DNA of 64,000 bases from a virus (taxonomy: Duplodnaviria; Heunggongvirae; Uroviricota; Caudoviricetes). The position numbers were made by a program. The DNA is taken from IMG/VR virus record IMGVR_UViG_2541047712_000002, one strand, 5' to 3'. Positions 1 through 60,000 of this stretch are shown here, in pieces (the stretch's first letter is position 1; each line of letters opens with the position of its first letter).

Positions 1-3000
1 GTTTACTTCCACAGCCTGTTCTGGCCTGCCATGCTGGAAGGCAGCAACTTCCGCAAGCCGACCAACCTGTTTGTTCACGGCTATGTGACGGTGAACGGCG
101 CGAAGATGTCCAAGTCTCGCGGCACCTTTATTAAAGCCAGCACCTGGCTGAATCATTTTGACGCCGACAGCCTGCGTTACTACTACACTGCGAAACTCTC
201 TTCGCGCATTGATGATATCGATCTCAACCTGGAGGATTTCGTTCAGCGCGTGAATGCCGATATCGTGAACAAAGTGGTTAACCTGGCCTCCCGTAATGCA
301 GGCTTTATCAACAAGCGTTTTGACGGCGTGCTGGCAAGCGAACTGGCTGACCCGCAACTGTACAAAACCTTTACTGATGCCGCTGAAGTGATTGGCGAAG
401 CATGGGAAAGCCGCGAATTTGGTAAAGCTATCCGTGAAATCATGGCATTGGCTGACCTGGCTAACCGCTATGTCGATGAACAGGCTCCGTGGGTGGTGGC
501 GAAGCAGGAAGGACGCGATGCCGATCTGCAGGCGATTTGCTCTATGGGCATTAACCTGTTCCGCGTGCTGATGACGTACCTGAAGCCGGTACTGCCGAAA
601 CTGACTGAACGTGCAGAAGCATTCCTGAATACAGAACTGACCTGGGATGGTATCCAGCAACCGCTGCTGGGCCATAAAGTGAATCCGTTCAAGGCACTGT
701 ATAACCGCATCGATATGAAGCAGGTTGAAGCACTGGTGGAAGCATCCAAAGAAGAAGTGAAAGCCACAGCCGCACCGGTAACTGGCCCACTGGCTGACGA
801 CCCGATTCAGGAAACTATCACCTTTGACGACTTCGCCAAAGTTGACCTGCGCGTGGCGCTGATTGAAAACGCAGAGTTTGTAGAAGGTTCTGACAAACTG
901 CTTCGCCTGACGCTGGATCTCGGTGGTGAAAAGCGTAATGTCTTCTCAGGCATCCGTTCCGCTTATCCAGATCCACAGGCACTGATTGGTCGTCACACCA
1001 TTATGGTGGCTAACCTGGCACCACGTAAAATGCGCTTCGGTATCTCTGAAGGCATGGTGATGGCTGCTGGCCCCGGCGGGAAAGATATCTTCCTGTTAAG
1101 CCCGGATGCTGGTGCTAAACCTGGCCACCAGGTTAAGTAATTAAACAACCTCTCTTCGCAATGCCCGGCAACACGCCGGGCATTTTCATATAGACACAAT
1201 CCCTTCTGATTTACACAGTACCTAAAACAATTTGTTTTCTGCCTTTTGTTGATGGAGATAATAAACCACATAAGAAAACAACTTGTTTTGGAGTGGTTGA
1301 AATGTTGAACATTACCCAAGCCTACCAGGTAGCATTGATCAGCTCATCTCATACATCAGAGGAAGATGCTCGCCGATTCATGATCGCAAGCAATGAGCTG
1401 GATTGGGTTTCACAAATTGAGTACGGTTGCATTGTCCACGCCGGGTTACAGGACGATGACTGGAAAGATGAGTTGCGTCGATATGGTATATCCGAGGGCG
1501 CGATTGCGAACATTCAGAAAGTACTTGATGTAGGCTTTGACTCTGTACATTTTGATTGTGGTGCACCGGTCGTTGAAGGGCTAGAGTGCTGGCAATGGTA
1601 ATCCGGCAATCGCTTCATACTAGACAACGGAGAATTTATGCTTAAAGAAGACTCATATCTACTAAAGGCGCTTGAAATGCGTGGCGTTGAACCTACAGTG
1701 AAAAACGCTCACGATATCTACCTTCAGTTTTCACCGGAGCTGAAACGGTTCATAAATCAATACGGGGTTAATGACTCAAGTGTTAAAGCAATGATAGATG
1801 ATGAATTAGACCATCTCATCTAATCGTTTCCTATGATAATGGTTTTCACTTTGAGATTGTTATTTTTCATAGCTAAAGCTGATGTTTGTGGAAGGTGGAT
1901 TGATAAACGGATGCGTATTTAGGTTATACAAGTGAGAAAATTGATAATATATAAACGCGATTTTTATGTGATGGAATGGATGTGATGGAAACCCAGAACC
2001 AACAAACAAAACCTCTGAATAACATTTATGCGTGGATTCTAGCGTTCATGCCTTTCTTCTTTGGAGTATCGCCGGAAGAGTATACCAATTACGCTATTAT
2101 AATTGGGGGTGTAACTACCATCGGTTTGTTAGTAGCTGACAGAATGGCTCTATCGGAGTCTGGCTGTGAACCACCTTCAATTCTATGGGGGGTATTCCTC
2201 CTGCCTGTCTATCTCTGGAAGCGCGCGACTATTACAAAAGGCAGCAGAGTGCCATTTATCATAATCGTTGCGTCGCTGGCTTGGGTTATCTTCATCGGCA
2301 TCCCACACAAGGACGAGGTTGCTCTTGAAGAAGCAGCCTGCCCTCTCGTGACAACTATTCTGAAAGAGAATAACGGTTCGACTGCACCAAAATGTATGAA
2401 GGTGACAATAGAGGACAAGGTGACGGATAAGTTCTATAGAGCAACGGCTACACTAGACAATGGTAATGACATTAACATTACTCTGGAACTTACCGGCGAC
2501 AGGAACTTCTACGTCCGTGTTCCAAATGTTTATCTGAACAACTAACGGTTGCAACTCATTGATAATGGCGGTCACAATTTGATTCTTTTCTATAAGAATC
2601 CGTTGATCGCCACTACTCCCCTTCCATACCCGCAATCACATCCTTAAATATCAATAAGTTATAGTTGTTTATACAATCAAGAAAACAACTGAATAACAGA
2701 TCAACGAAACATCAACGCTTTCACCCGATTTGGTCTAAAAAATTGACGTTTTCACACATCACTGCTTATACCCGTAATTCTACGCAGCAGACAGCGCCAC
2801 AGCGTCCAATTTTCACCACAGACGACCCAACACACTACCAACAAAAACACACGCTCAAAATCGTTCCCGTTGCGTTACATAACCATATAAACAACTTATT
2901 TTCAGGCATAACAAAACAACTAAATAACACATATGCCATTCCCAAAACAACCAACCTCTTTATGGCAGGCTACCGAAAAGACCCACCTCTTCTTCCCAGG

Positions 3001-57000: not shown

Positions 57001-60000
57001 GTCTTGCCGGTTCTGGTGCGTCAACCTCACAAAGCCATTTCTGCTTAGTAACCAAACACATTAAATAGGTAATGACTCACTTATTCATTTTAGCTATAGT
57101 CACGACACTTACTCACTTGAAAGGACTCAATATGGGAAACAAACGTAAACAGGCGCGTCGCGCAGCTCGTCAGGCAGTGAAGTCAAAGCCACGCATCCAC
57201 GGCTACGAAATTGACACAATCATCGTTAATGAACAGCAGTTGCACGAGGTGAAGTGATGAAAGTCGTTATCTACGGACGAGATAACTGCTCATACTGCAA
57301 ACGTGCGGTCGAGCTGGCGAAGCAACTAAAGGGACATGGCTACGGTGATTATGAGTACATCGACATCACTACTGCCGGTATCGATAAGGAAAAACTTAGC
57401 GAAATTATTGGTAAACCGGTAGAGACTATCCCCCAGGTATTGATCGATGGCCAACCGATTGGCGGATACACAGAACTTGCAGCTTACATAAATTTGTTAT
57501 GACTAGTATGGCCGCTAGCCACACCATCCTTGATTAAAAAAAACACAATCGTTATAAGGAGCAATCTTCATTGTTGATAAGACGACTTAACTATACTTAT
57601 CCTATACCTCAGGTGTTATGTTATAACATTTGATACTTGGGGAAGATTATGTTACTTAAAGCATTAAGGATTGGATTGATCGCAGGCATCTTTTGTACGT
57701 GTACAACGTATGTCGCTGGAAAAAACAGTAGATGTTAAATTCCCGTCTGAAAAAGATAAAGTAGCATACTCGGACGTCATAAAAGGTTTTGACTATAAAA
57801 CTTATAAATTTCGCGCGAAGAAGGGACAACACCTTCAGATATTACTATCAAATGAATGGAGTGAACATATCCATATCTCTTTGGGCCAAGCATCGAAGAT
57901 TAGATTGTTCTTGATAGAAGCTCACCTTGTCTAAATGAGCAAGCGAAATATATGCTTCATGAATCAGGCGTATATTAATTACGTGTAAGACAAACACGAA
58001 ATAATGCAAGGGAAGATTAAAAGTAAAAATACAATATTGAACGTAAAATACACTAAGAGTTAGTTATACAGAAAATTCAACTAAGCCGGGCAGTACTGAC
58101 GTTGTGTCAACCTTCCATTTTCATGGAAGGTTTTTTTTTGCTTGCGATATAACAATAGCAAACACTCATAATCTAAAAGTATTGAGTCTACATAAAACTC
58201 ACGCCTTAACCTCATGACAATCAGGCAAAAATAACAATAGAAACTATTTAAAATTTTATTTTTTTTATATTTAATCTAAACATTATTTTATCTTAACCCT
58301 TTGTTTTTTAAGAAATTCATGCAGATCACAAATATTTGAAAAACAATATTATTACCTGGCTTGTGTGTTTTTTATTGATTTTAAACACCACGATTATTGT
58401 CTTTGTCAGAATAATAGTCTAGGTTATTTGGCTTGTGCAGATCTTTTATCTATAATCGTTGTTTGATGGGTTTATATTTTTCAGTAAACTTCAAAAAAAA
58501 ACACGAATGTCTAACTAGGTTATATTCAGTTCATTTTTGTCAAATTATTAAATTATCACCTGGCTAAACTGATAACATTTACCTACTCAGGTGGCTGAAA
58601 TGAGGATTTCGTTAAATGAAAAAATAAAGGGAGAACGGTTTAATACGCCGGGAAACATGTCAAGGGAGCACTTTAACTTACTAATTGAGCTATCACCCAT
58701 AAGTAGCGAGAAGGTAAGATTAGCTTTATACGATTTTTTCGTTGACGGAGTAACACGTAAGGAAGCGTGCACCAGACACAATGTTTCACAAGGATATTTT
58801 TCTATTAGTGTAAGAAAATTCATTCAGGTTAATGATAGAGTAACAAAGGCTGTTAAATATTACTTGCCGAAATACTTAATTGTATAGCTCTGTTTTTTGA
58901 TAATGGAGGTGGTTAAACAATAAAAACCGTAATATAAAACACATTCAGTTCTTAATATTTTATTTTTCCATTTAATTTTATTTAAAGATAGGTTAGATAT
59001 GAAAAAGCTGACTCTTATTGCAACGTTAATGGCATCTGCTATGTCATTCTCATCTCACGCTGCTACAACATCAGCAAGCGTGAATATTACCGGCTCGATC
59101 GTTCCATCTGCATGTGCAATTAGCGCCAGTGCAAATGGAGGTACTATTGACTTTGGGAAAATCCTTTCATCAGAACTTGGTGAGCAGGGTGTTACACGTA
59201 AGGCAAAGAACGATACTCTTACTATTACGTGTGATAAAGATACTACGGCCGTAGTAAAAGTTAGTGGAAGCAATGGTGTAGATGGCAACACTTATAATTC
59301 AGATAAAGACTTCGTTAAAATTGCTGTGCAATTTACCGACGTAAATGTCACTGGCGGTAATGCTACAAATAAATTCCTCGTATCTAACGCAGCATCTGTA
59401 GATTTAGATAATCTGACGGCAGCAGGTTTTACCACCGCAGCAGGAAATAAACCGTTATTCCCGTTCAATGGAAACTATCTCGCCGTTGCTGATACAAACA
59501 ATAGCGTTGGTACATTTAAGACATTGACTGCAAATTATAGCGTCAGCGCGGTAGTGCAAAACGCTTCTGCTAAACGAGCTCTTACCCAAGGTGAACAAAC
59601 CTTCGGTGGCGCAGTTACATTCGAACTGAACTATCTATAACCCATAATTAATAAACAGTAACGGAGTAACCTCCGTTACTGTTATAAAAAACATGATCAA
59701 AAGAATATTTCTACCTATATTAATGAGCATTCCATGTTCAGTATATGCTTTAGGAATGCAACCTGAAACAACCGTTTTAATATTTAACGAAGAGAAGAAT
59801 GAAGCTTCTATTTCTGTTAAGAATACAAACAGTGTGCCAAGCCTACTTCAAACAAAAATTGTGGATATAGGGGAAGCTGAAAATGTTCTAGTATTATCTT
59901 CACCATCAATAGTTAAAATAGAACCAGGAGAGTCTCAAATAGTAAGATTCTTTTTGAAAAAGAATTCTGATTTTGATACTCAGATACTTAAGAGAGTAAG

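What the first reader, a model, noticed from the sequence alone, without database searches (positions are those of the whole stretch)
1141..57502. Phage-like element next to metG with no integrase or CI-type repressor inside, but with plasmid-style partition, toxin-antitoxin, own replisome genes and tRNAs
Over about 56 kb I find packaging, head, tail, lysis, DnaB-like helicase, primase, ligase, ParA-type partition and a TA pair but no recombinase; the only integrase-like gene starts at 63529, beyond a fimbrial operon, and reads out of the window. The mix of lytic-type features (terminator-separated early genes, own ligase and tRNAs) and plasmid-maintenance features (ParA, TA), located right after a host housekeeping gene, is unusual. 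It could be an integrated phage-plasmid, a defective prophage mobilised in trans, or an element whose att site and integrase lie to the right.
Basis: partly seen in the sequence, partly recalled or inferred. Interest (0 to 1): 0.6.

Follow-up and report, generated by a model that had tools for sequence, protein, structure and literature searches.

The report
Piece of an SSU5-like phage-plasmid
The window is not a prophage inserted beside a host gene: it is about 60% of a well-known type of about 110-kb circular phage-plasmid (SSU5/pHCM2 family) that lives as a plasmid, so the odd mix of phage and plasmid genes is ordinary for its kind.

Summary
Pfam and PHROGs confirm packaging, head, tail, lysis, a DnaB-like helicase, primase, ATP ligase, ParA, a TacT/TacA-type toxin-antitoxin pair, tRNAs, a fimbrial operon and a tyrosine recombinase starting at 63529.

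The framing is wrong. All 64 kb belong to an SSU5/pHCM2-type phage-plasmid, 96-100% identical to Escherichia phages Cyrano, CMS-2020a and PhiR41_1 and to hundreds of circular plasmids, mostly about 105-115 kb. The backbone occurs in 260 of 5,426 complete E. coli genomes, at 447 places, all on plasmids and none on a chromosome.

The "host" metG is the element's own paralogue. It is at least 95% identical only to plasmid copies, while chromosomal metG is 93-95% identical.

The missing recombinase and repressor sit just right of the window's end in every relative: int, a convergent HTH repressor, a cro-like gene, then cobT, dnaE and repA. The fimbrial operon is rare cargo in a variable slot between grxA and int.

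Verdict: an already known kind of element, low interest.

Three side observations deserve a look:
- a conserved 13-7-13 palindrome and a LexA box in front of int
- the cargo slot next to them
- a 133-nt tRNA-like gene without an anticodon loop

The parts
31..1140 (+). 3' part (369 codons) of the phage-plasmid's own metG (methionyl-tRNA synthetase); the gene starts left of the window
   Evidence: Pfam tRNA-synt_1g, Anticodon_3 and tRNA_bind. It is 100% identical to plasmid NZ_CP075058.1; matches of at least 95% are on plasmids, and chromosomal metG is 93-94.7% identical. Annotated as MetRS in Cyrano and PhiR41_1.
1293..8562 (.). Block of small genes of unknown function with hairpin or terminator-like sites
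   Evidence: Syntenic hypothetical genes in PhiR41_1, pSW071618 and the CH4804 plasmid. Terminator scan gave 16 sites against 10.2 +/- 3.0 expected.
8859..9380 (-). FljA-like 'repressor of phase-1 flagellin' homologue
   Evidence: Pfam Flag1_repress, E = 1.4e-68.
11539..13098 (-). DEAD/DEAH-box (UvsW-like) helicase
   Evidence: Pfam ResIII, DEAD and Helicase_C.
13163..15191 (+). Two ParB_N-domain proteins followed by an ABC-type ATPase
   Evidence: Pfam ParB_N twice and ABC_tran.
16550..26249 (+). Packaging and head module and the major tail protein: DNA-binding protein (small-terminase candidate), TerL, portal, scaffold, major head protein, head-tail connectors, Ig-domain tail tube
   Evidence: PHROGs for terminase large subunit, portal, scaffold, major head protein and major tail protein. 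The stretch 11500-33500, which contains this module, is 100% identical to the CH4804 plasmid.
26959..42030 (+). Tail module: tape measure (1531 aa), minor tail proteins, C40 peptidase, tail assembly protein, TipJ, and a recombinant tail-fibre and chaperone block (36.7-42.0 kb)
   Evidence: PHROGs; Peptidase_S74 chaperone domain. The fibre block is shared with lambdoid prophage PhiR49_1 and with other 105-110-kb phage-plasmids.
42200..43494 (+). Lysis cassette (holin, endolysin, spanin)
   Evidence: PHROG endolysin; Cyrano annotation.
43663..44500 (-). Type II toxin-antitoxin pair: GNAT (TacT/KacT-type) toxin and TacA antitoxin
   Evidence: Pfam Acetyltransf_7 and Acetyltransf_1, and TacA1 at E = 8.6e-26.
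44780..45807 (+). ParA partition ATPase plus a 119-aa downstream partner (probable centromere-binding adaptor; labelled RelE/ParE in Cyrano, with no support found here)
   Evidence: NCBIfam ParA_partition, E = 1.9e-33; Pfam MipZ and AAA_31. The partner has no Pfam hit and falls in PHROG 5111, unknown function.
47991..53309 (+). Replication genes: DnaB-like helicase, primase, two unknowns, ATP-dependent DNA ligase
   Evidence: Pfam DnaB_C, Toprim_2/DNAG_N and DNA_ligase_A_M.
54898..55512 (+). tRNA cluster: Asn(GTT), Tyr(GTA), a 133-nt tRNA-like gene 'X' (55069-55201), a structured spacer, and Ser(TGA)
   Evidence: ARAGORN; Rfam; PGAP 'tRNA-OTHER' in pSW071618; alignments and folds.
55693..57030 (-). 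Membrane-anchored protein of unknown function (accessory gene, absent from Cyrano)
   Evidence: PHROG 18168 at E = 1e-176; no Pfam, PADLOC or NCBIfam hit.
57254..57502 (+). GrxA-type glutaredoxin; left edge of the cargo slot
   Evidence: Pfam Glutaredoxin; conserved next to int in relatives.
57503..63397 (+). 5.9-kb low-GC (34%) cargo. It holds a chaperone-usher fimbrial operon at 58591-63265: PapB-type regulator, DUF1120/fimbrial subunit, PapD chaperone, usher, and a 171-aa subunit or adhesin candidate.
   Evidence: Pfam PapB, Fimbrial, PapD_N and Usher. NCBIfam best hit is a Salmonella fimbrial-usher subfamily model (PRK15304), well below its cut-off. Composition. It replaces 79-1300 bp found in other family members. 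It occurs only on six phage-plasmids in each collection.
63398..63430 (.). Perfect 13-7-13 inverted repeat AATGATTCCATAC-TTACTAT-GTATGGAATCATT, a candidate core site of the recombinase
   Evidence: The arms are invariant and the spacer variable in 67 related loci whose recombinase is 85-99% identical. No chromosomal copy in 5,426 genomes.
63455..63502 (+). Putative int promoter (TTGATC, 17 nt, TAATAT) abutted by a LexA box, TACTGTTTACTTATACAGTG (63483-63502)
   Evidence: Sequence. It is the only exact TACTGT-N8-ACAGT match in the window. CTG-N10-CAG is kept, with a variable interior, in 67 of 68 related loci.
63529..64000 (+). First 157 codons of a 367-aa tyrosine recombinase ('int') that reads out of the window
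   Evidence: Pfam Phage_int_M on the window part. The full-length homologue hits Phage_integrase at E = 4.5e-10.

Best explanation
The window is a 64-kb arc of a circular, extrachromosomal SSU5/pHCM2-type phage-plasmid of Escherichia coli, about 110 kb in all.

In lysogeny the element replicates as a low-copy plasmid from a RepA (IncFIB-type) replicon that lies outside the window. Three things stabilise it: a ParA partition system, a TacT/TacA-type toxin-antitoxin pair, and (inferred) a tyrosine recombinase acting on a lox/dif-like 13-7-13 site just upstream of its own gene to resolve multimers.

Immunity comes from a small HTH repressor. It is convergent with int and divergent from a cro-like gene, immediately right of the window.

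On induction, which is DNA-damage dependent in the relative Cyrano, the element uses its own replication genes: DnaB-like helicase, primase and ligase in the window, and dnaE, nrdAB and thyA outside it. It then builds siphovirus particles from the 16.5-42 kb module and lyses the cell.

metG, the tRNAs, grxA and the fimbrial operon are auxiliary or cargo genes. The fimbrial operon occupies a variable slot between grxA and the recombinase site.

Shown here: homology, synteny, plasmid-only distribution, gene families and site conservation. Inferred: the role of the recombinase, SOS control of int, and the function of the cargo.
For: - Identity to known elements. The window is 96-98% identical over most of its length to Escherichia phages CMS-2020a, PhiR41_1 and Cyrano, and about 80% to Salmonella phage SSU5. 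It also matches 800-1,000 PLSDB plasmids, almost all non-mobilizable; the close ones are about 105-115 kb.
- Plasmid-only distribution. Backbone 11500-33500 is in 260 of 5,426 complete E. coli genomes at 447 places, all on plasmids and none on a chromosome.
- Coverage. Five relatives alone cover 56.6 of the 64 kb at 99.3% best identity. The remaining tail-fibre block is on other phage-plasmids.
- Circular relatives. Complete relatives are circular. The two fetched in full carry repA, dnaE, recA, nrdAB, thyA and dfrA51 outside the window, and all of those examined have int followed by an HTH regulator, with a small gene next to it in three of them, directly after the window's end.
- metG. The allele is plasmid-specific.
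- Experimental precedent. Cyrano (pLF82) is a plasmid at 5.5 copies per cell. It releases virions and is induced 39-fold by ciprofloxacin (PMC9928086).
- Family description. The SSU5 supergroup is described with persistent tyrosine recombinases and variable plasmid-like genes (PMC7969092).
- Gene families.
- Recombinase site and LexA box conservation.
Against: - The window contains neither repA nor the ends of the record. That this particular copy is circular and extrachromosomal is therefore inferred from relatives, not seen.
- No record in the collections matches the whole window at 99% or more. It is a mosaic of known relatives.
- Virion production by this copy is untested. Some SSU5-like plasmids are reported not to behave as phages (abstract of PMC8969562).
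- The resolvase role of int is inference. The protein has no sequence match to any solved structure.
Confidence: 0.95

Rival explanations
1. An integrated prophage, or integrated phage-plasmid, lying in the chromosome downstream of the host metG gene, with its att site and integrase to the right.
For: metG in the window is 93-95% identical to chromosomal metG of every E. coli, so it looks like a host gene. A tyrosine recombinase lies at the right end.
Against: The metG allele matches plasmid copies at 95-100% and chromosomal copies at only 93-94.7%. In relatives, metG is preceded by more phage-plasmid genes (apbC-like, humD/umuD-like). There are no chromosomal copies of the backbone in 5,426 complete genomes. 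No chromosomal copy of the palindromic site exists that could serve as attB. The fimbrial operon is never chromosomal.
Confidence: 0.02
2. A domesticated or defective phage-like plasmid: the same family, maintained as a plasmid, but no longer able to make infectious virions.
For: Some SSU5-like plasmids are reported not to act as phages (PMC8969562 abstract). Cargo such as a 5.9-kb fimbrial operon raises genome size to about 113 kb in the carriers. The start codon of one small conserved ORF is mutated in the window (53680, ATG to ATA).
Against: All large structural, lysis and replication ORFs in the window are open and full length against PHROG profiles. The structural block is 100% identical to another plasmid and 96-98% to phages isolated as virions. 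Carriers of about 113 kb are within the family's size range (103-120 kb).
Confidence: 0.12
3. A satellite or defective element that lacks its own recombination and immunity functions and is mobilised in trans by a helper.
For: No recombinase or repressor lies inside 1141-57502.
Against: Both genes are present in cis immediately to the right. int starts at 63529, and the repressor follows it in every relative examined. The element encodes a complete virion, lysis and replication set.
Confidence: 0.01

Closest known systems
Escherichia phage Cyrano (pLF82 of AIEC strain LF82) and other E. coli members of the SSU5_pHCM2 phage-plasmid group (CMS-2020a, PhiR41_1, pTHO-010-2, pSW071618_contig_2, CH4804 plasmid unnamed3)
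   Same: Gene order is the same from metG through the structural, lysis, toxin-antitoxin, ParA, helicase-primase-ligase, tRNA and grxA genes to int. Nucleotide identity is 96-100% over most of the window.
   Different: The window is a mosaic. It has its own tail-fibre block (36.7-42.1 kb) and extra accessory genes (45.8-47.0 kb and 55.7-57.0 kb). It carries tRNA-Tyr, with the tRNA-like X in place of tRNA-Thr. A 5.9-kb fimbrial operon sits where Cyrano has the 555-bp moron CYRAN_43.
Salmonella phage SSU5 and plasmid pHCM2 of S. Typhi
   Same: Same family and same backbone at about 80% DNA identity.
   Different: In SSU5 the cobT-like gene follows tRNA-Asn directly, where the relatives have the grxA-cargo-int-repressor block, so it looks like a lysogeny-module deletion. 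pHCM2 itself was not examined.
Phage P1 (Cre/loxP, ParAB, Phd/Doc, its own tRNAs)
   Same: Same lifestyle logic: a plasmid prophage with partition, addiction, a tyrosine recombinase with an inverted-repeat core site, and phage-borne tRNAs. The tRNA-like gene X and its neighbours are even shared with a P1-like IncY plasmid.
   Different: The virion is unrelated (siphovirus against myovirus), and so are the replicon, the recombinase and the site. int here carries a LexA box; I know of none at cre (own knowledge, not checked here).
Integron platform (intI with a LexA-controlled promoter, attI, adjacent cassettes)
   Same: The layout is alike: a tyrosine recombinase gene whose promoter carries a LexA box, a recombination-type site about 100 bp upstream, and highly variable cargo directly beyond that site.
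   Different: No attC-like second sites flank the cargo. No IntI-specific sequence features were seen. The cargo units are ordinary genes with their own terminators. Exchange by homologous recombination between the conserved flanks explains the pattern equally well.
pMT1 of Yersinia pestis (SSU5 supergroup) with the caf1 chaperone-usher operon
   Same: That pMT1 carries the caf1 chaperone-usher operon is from my own knowledge. PMC7969092 only places pMT1 in the SSU5 supergroup and lists PapC/PapD-type pilus assembly genes in its shell genome.
   Different: The host, operon and insertion site differ. The operon here scores best against a Salmonella fimbrial-usher subfamily model (PRK15304), far below its cut-off.

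Membership tests
SSU5_pHCM2 phage-plasmid group | Backbone homology and synteny with SSU5, pHCM2 and Cyrano (persistent phage genes) | tested here: met
   96-98% identity to E. coli members and about 80% to SSU5, in the same gene order.
SSU5_pHCM2 phage-plasmid group | Complete tailed-phage module (terminase, portal, capsid, tape measure, tail tip, lysis) | tested here: met
   PHROG and Pfam hits with full-length coverage.
SSU5_pHCM2 phage-plasmid group | Plasmid maintenance genes (partition, toxin-antitoxin, plasmid replicase) | tested here: inconclusive
   ParA and TacT/TacA are present. repA lies outside the window and is seen only in relatives.
SSU5_pHCM2 phage-plasmid group | Extrachromosomal circular state | not testable with these tools
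   Only indirect support: 447 of 447 backbone matches in complete E. coli genomes are on plasmids. The topology of this copy cannot be read from a 64-kb window.
SSU5_pHCM2 phage-plasmid group | Production of infectious virions | not testable with these tools
   Cyrano releases DNase-protected genomes and SSU5-sized siphovirus particles (PMC9928086). SSU5 and PhiR41_1 are deposited as phage genomes with a named host strain.
Integrated prophage | Host chromosomal DNA on at least one flank | tested here: not met
   metG is the plasmid allele. The whole window matches phage-plasmids.
Integrated prophage | An attB-like copy of the recombinase core site in the host chromosome | tested here: not met
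   A 61-nt probe over the palindrome found 504 plasmid places. The 10 chromosomal places are marginal: the two listed are 25-nt matches inside a fimbrial gene, E = 5.
Cre/lox- or Xer/dif-type multimer-resolution module | Tyrosine recombinase catalytic domain | tested here: met
   PF00589 at E = 4.5e-10 on the full-length homologue. PF22022 on the window part scores 24.0 bits, below Pfam's 27-bit gathering cut-off.
Cre/lox- or Xer/dif-type multimer-resolution module | Core site of two inverted binding arms around a 6-8-bp spacer, next to the gene | tested here: met
   Perfect 13-7-13 site about 100 bp upstream of int. Arms are invariant and there are at least 7 spacer variants among 67 loci whose recombinase is 85-99% identical; one locus at 56% keeps the inner 11 nt of each arm.
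Cre/lox- or Xer/dif-type multimer-resolution module | Recombination at the site and resolution of multimers | not testable with these tools
   Needs a genetic or biochemical assay.
LexA (SOS) regulon member | LexA box (CTGT-N8-ACAG) overlapping a promoter, conserved in relatives | tested here: met
   TACTGTTTACTTATACAGTG matches the consensus at 16 of 20 positions (consensus from my own knowledge) and abuts the TAATAT -10 element. It is conserved with a variable interior in 67 of 68 loci. LexA binding was not tested.
Chaperone-usher fimbriae | PapD-like chaperone, usher, pilin subunit(s) and a regulator in one operon | tested here: met
   Pfam PapB, Fimbrial/DUF1120, PapD_N, and Usher with PapC_N (PapC_C is below Pfam's cut-off).
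Canonical tRNA (for gene X, 55069-55201) | Cloverleaf with a 7-nt anticodon loop | tested here: not met
   The acceptor, D and T arms equal those of the family's tRNA-Thr, but three hairpins replace the anticodon arm. ARAGORN and Rfam RF00005 do not call it.

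The most novel reading that the evidence does not exclude
The conserved block in front of int is more than a plasmid resolvase. The block consists of a 13-7-13 core site, a LexA-controlled promoter, a tyrosine recombinase, and a convergent repressor gene that overlaps it.

Two readings are not excluded:
- It is an SOS-triggered switch of the SSU5-type lysis-lysogeny decision. 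After LexA cleavage, int transcription would run antisense through the repressor gene.
- It is an integron-like, SOS-controlled capture platform. That would explain why at least ten different cargos, including this fimbrial operon, sit exactly beside the site.

Exact single copies of the 13-mer arm also occur nearby: upstream of the tRNA cluster, 253 nt inside dnaE on its antisense strand (outside the window), and at the start of a small ORF (this last one has one mismatch in the window). They would then be part of the same control or recombination network.
Probability: 0.15. Interest if true: 0.6.

Novelty: already known. Interest (0 to 1): 0.2.

Why it matters
For the scan, the main value is a correction. 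A 64-kb window that looks like 'prophage next to a housekeeping gene' can be an arc of a phage-plasmid that carries its own copy of that gene. The absence of integrase and repressor was an effect of where the window ended.

Biologically, the element belongs to a family found in about 5% of complete E. coli genomes. The family is already known to carry resistance genes such as blaCTX-M-15 (PMC8085198); the two relatives fetched in full carry dfrA51.

Three details could matter for how these elements are induced and how they pick up host-relevant traits:
- a rare fimbrial operon carried only on these phage-plasmids
- a family-wide LexA box on the recombinase promoter
- a defined cargo slot beside the recombinase site

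Tried and rejected
- **Source record.** I looked for the exact source record. None matches the whole window at 99% or more. The structural block equals the CH4804 plasmid, the right end equals pSW071618 and pTHO-010-2, and metG equals NZ_CP075058.1.
- **Chromosomal copies.** I searched for chromosomal copies of the backbone and of the palindromic site. There were none of the backbone, and only chance-level hits for the site.
- **Defence systems.** PADLOC on ten unknown proteins gave only generic P-loop hits for the ABC ATPase.
- **Partition site.** I looked for iterated centromere repeats around parA. Nothing convincing appeared.
- **Second site at the cargo's left edge.** No second full recombinase site lies there or anywhere else in the window. 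Classic two-site insertion of the fimbrial operon is therefore not supported.
- **Is the 13-mer the repressor's operator?** The repressor-cro intergenic region has different repeats (GGTAAG-N2-CTTACC), and sigma-70 scans found no promoter over the single 13-mers. The result is inconclusive.
- **Origin of the fimbrial operon.** The usher has no close relative in 185,579 species-representative genomes.
- **Solved structures.** int has no sequence match to any PDB chain at E <= 1.
- **Gene X.** Rfam finds nothing over it. With five sequence variants there is no covariation.
- **Literature.** Searches found no paper on LexA control of int in pHCM2/SSU5 elements, and none in which this fimbrial cargo was evident; only one of the seven hits was opened. 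One 2026 preprint on a phage-plasmid heteroresistance mechanism could not be opened.

Full report
**What the window is**

Megablast of the two ends of the window against phage records gave Escherichia phages CMS-2020a, PhiR41_1 and Cyrano at 96-98% identity. Salmonella phage SSU5 and Klebsiella relatives came in at about 80%. The ends also matched about 800 (left end) and 1,000 (right end) PLSDB plasmids. Almost all are non-mobilizable, and the close matches are about 105-115 kb.

The annotated relatives are circular, and those with replicon typing are IncFIB. The gene order of the window continues on both sides into more phage-plasmid genes:
- To the left of metG lie apbC-like and humD/umuD-like genes, the DNA polymerase III theta subunit, a methylase, and nrdAB, thyA and dfrA51.
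- To the right of the window's end lie int, an HTH regulator, a small gene, cobT-like and AAA ATPase genes, dnaE, a 5'-3' exonuclease, recA and repA.

Five relatives alone cover 56.6 of the 64 kb at a mean best identity of 99.3%. The largest remaining gap, the tail-fibre block at 36.7-42.1 kb, is found at 96% on other 105-110-kb plasmids of the family. The window is therefore a mosaic member of the E. coli lineage of the SSU5_pHCM2 phage-plasmid group. It contains no host chromosome.

**Checking the observation**

No recombinase or CI-type repressor lies between 1141 and 57502.

In all relatives the 367-aa tyrosine recombinase that starts at window 63529 is followed by a 128-aa HTH protein on the opposite strand, overlapping it by a few bases. 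A 70-aa gene follows, divergent from that HTH gene. In Cyrano the HTH gene (CYRAN_45) is listed as the putative repressor and is expressed in lysogeny (PMC9928086).

**The 'host' metG**

The 1,140 bases at the left end are 93-94.7% identical to the chromosomal metG of all 5,426 complete E. coli genomes. They are 95-100% identical only to plasmid copies: 220 plasmid places, including 100% to a 107.5-kb plasmid. The element thus carries its own, slightly diverged, full-length metG.

**Integrated or not**

The 22-kb backbone segment 11500-33500 occurs in 260 of 5,426 complete genomes at 447 places, all on plasmids. A 61-nt probe over the recombinase site found 504 plasmid places. The 10 chromosomal places were at chance level; the two listed have E = 5. 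The fimbrial cargo is likewise never chromosomal.

Cyrano has been shown to be a plasmid at 5.5 copies per cell. It releases virions and is induced 39-fold by ciprofloxacin (PMC9928086). Integration next to metG is rejected. An extrachromosomal state for this copy is very likely but cannot be read from the window itself.

**How it most likely works**

- Plasmid phase: RepA replication (outside the window), ParA with a small partner protein (44780-45807), a TacT/TacA-type addiction pair (43663-44500), and the recombinase.
- Lytic phase: the element's own helicase, primase and ligase, with dnaE, nrdAB and thyA outside the window; a siphovirus module at 16.5-42 kb; and a lysis cassette at 42.2-43.5 kb.
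- Auxiliary genes: metG, the tRNAs, grxA, the FljA-like regulator, a 445-aa membrane protein, and the fimbrial operon.

These assignments rest on family membership and homology. The copy number, virion release and ciprofloxacin induction of Cyrano come from the literature. The role of the recombinase is my inference.

**The recombinase region (side finding, partly followed)**

About 100 bp upstream of int lies a perfect 13-7-13 inverted repeat at 63398-63430. In 67 loci from IMG/VR whose recombinase is 85-99% identical, both arms are invariant while the 7-bp spacer has at least seven versions. One locus at 56% identity keeps the inner 11 nt of each arm. Invariant arms with a free spacer are what a tyrosine-recombinase core site looks like, although a dimeric regulator's operator is not excluded.

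Between the palindrome and int sits a plausible promoter (TTGATC, 17 nt, TAATAT). It is abutted by TACTGTTTACTTATACAGTG, a 16-of-20 match to the LexA-box consensus as I know it. This is the only exact TACTGT-N8-ACAGT in the window. In 67 of 68 loci the CTG and CAG triplets are kept while the interior varies. That pattern argues for selection on LexA binding and fits Cyrano's induction by ciprofloxacin.

I found no paper describing this. Because int and the repressor gene converge and overlap, SOS-induced int transcription could also act against the repressor. That step is speculation.

**The cargo slot**

Comparing 50 of these loci and Cyrano with the window, the DNA between the grxA terminator and the palindrome varies widely:
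- It is only 79-81 bp in the commonest E. coli form.
- It holds at least ten unrelated inserts of 0.8-1.3 kb in others. In Cyrano this is CYRAN_43, which is expressed 723-fold above the prophage background.
- In the CH4804 plasmid, examined separately, it holds a YafO-type toxin and a hypothetical gene.
- It holds 5.9 kb here.

There is no second site at the left edge. Exchange by homologous recombination between conserved flanks is therefore the simplest explanation. An integron-like role for int is possible but unsupported.

The fimbrial operon has 34% GC. It carries a PapB-type regulator, chaperone, usher and two subunits. It is found at 99% or more in only 6 of 5,426 genomes and 6 of 72,556 plasmids, always on phage-plasmids of about 112-115 kb. 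It has no close relative among 185,579 species-representative genomes.

Earlier descriptions called the pHCM2-like plasmids of E. coli devoid of virulence factors (PMC8085198). PapC/PapD-type genes are noted in the supergroup's shell genome (PMC7969092).

**The tRNA cluster**

Besides Asn, Tyr and Ser, there is a 133-nt gene at 55069-55201 that PGAP labels tRNA-OTHER in a relative. Its acceptor, D and T arms equal those of the family's tRNA-Thr, but three hairpins replace the anticodon arm, one of them with a UUCG loop. No 7-nt anticodon loop remains.

The gene is conserved in 11 PLSDB plasmids and 6 IMG/VR contigs. The hosts named in the examined records are E. coli, E. albertii and Salmonella. 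The carriers include both SSU5-like plasmids and a P1-like IncY plasmid. The few substitutions fall in loops or keep the pairs, but there is no true covariation. Its function is unknown.

The spacer after it forms a long stem with compensatory changes between lineages.

**Repeated 13-mer**

The arm sequence AATGATTCCATAC also occurs as exact single copies about 200 nt upstream of tRNA-Asn (54691) and, outside the window, 253 nt inside dnaE on its antisense strand. A further copy sits at the start of a small ORF at 53680, where the window has one mismatch. There are five copies in each complete relative, all within about 12 kb of int, oriented towards the palindrome. I estimate about 0.002 chance occurrences of one extra exact 13-mer in 128 kb, counting both strands. 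SSU5, which lacks int and the repressor, keeps the three single copies with 0-2 mismatches. I cannot explain these copies.

**Verdict**

The interpretation as an element integrated next to a host gene is wrong. The thing itself is an already known kind of mobile element. Interest for the finding as stated is low. The LexA box with the palindrome and int, the cargo slot with a phage-plasmid-only fimbrial operon, and the tRNA-like gene are the items worth passing on.

Noticed in passing
window 63398-63502 (and 68 related loci, L013-L082): A perfect 13-7-13 inverted repeat lies about 100 bp upstream of the tyrosine recombinase gene. A LexA box abuts the -10 element of the putative int promoter. 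The arms, and the CTG/CAG triplets of the LexA box, are invariant across the family, while the spacer and the box interior vary. I found no paper that describes this.
   Followed up: partly
window 57503-63397: A variable cargo slot lies between the grxA terminator and the palindrome. It is 79-81 bp when empty, holds at least ten alternative inserts of 0.8-1.3 kb in relatives, and here holds a 5.9-kb, 34%-GC chaperone-usher fimbrial operon. That operon occurs only on six phage-plasmids in each collection and never on a chromosome.
   Followed up: partly
window 55069-55201 (+): A 133-nt tRNA-like gene. It has the acceptor, D and T arms of the family's tRNA-Thr, but three hairpins stand in place of the anticodon arm. 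ARAGORN and Rfam do not call it. It is conserved in SSU5-like and P1-like phage-plasmids of E. coli, E. albertii and Salmonella.
   Followed up: partly
window 55202-55425 (+): The structured spacer between the tRNA-like gene and tRNA-Ser forms a long stem (ACAAC-GGTAAGNNNA ... TNNNCTTACC-GTTGT) with compensatory changes between lineages and a variable interior. In some relatives the interior contains a T-arm-like GGTTCGAATCC motif.
   Followed up: partly
window 53680-53692, 54691-54703, 63398-63430; and inside dnaE in relatives (e.g. L003 26356-26368): The 13-mer AATGATTCCATAC, which is the palindrome arm, recurs as single copies: exact at 54691 and in dnaE, with one mismatch at 53680. They all lie within about 12 kb of int and point towards the palindrome. 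The copies are kept with 0-2 mismatches in SSU5, which lacks int and the repressor. Unexplained.
   Followed up: partly
window 1-1140: The phage-plasmid carries a full-length metG paralogue that is only 5-7% diverged from the E. coli chromosomal gene. It looks like a host-derived auxiliary gene fixed in the family (220 plasmid copies among complete genomes).
   Followed up: partly
L012 (Salmonella phage SSU5, 42.5-42.8 kb of the record): In SSU5, tRNA-Asn is followed directly by the cobT-like gene. The grxA, cargo, int and repressor block seen in the E. coli phage-plasmids is absent from this position. [quoted passage not shown]
   Followed up: no
window 36682-42127: The tail-fibre and chaperone block is recombinant. 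Part of it (40000-41988) is 96% identical to the side tail fibre region of the lambdoid prophage PhiR49_1, which implies host-range module exchange between phage-plasmids and integrated prophages.
   Followed up: no
window 45448-45807: The 119-aa gene after parA is annotated 'RelE/ParE putative toxin' in Cyrano, but it has no Pfam or NCBIfam support for that. By position it is more likely the centromere-binding partner of ParA. A perfect 13-nt inverted repeat follows it at 45806-45835.
   Followed up: partly
L001 33013-33265 (just right of the window in relative pTHO-010-2): The intergenic region between the repressor and the cro-like gene holds the palindrome GGTAAG-TG-CTTACC and further GGTAAG/CTTACC half-sites. 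These are candidate operators of the HTH repressor.
   Followed up: no
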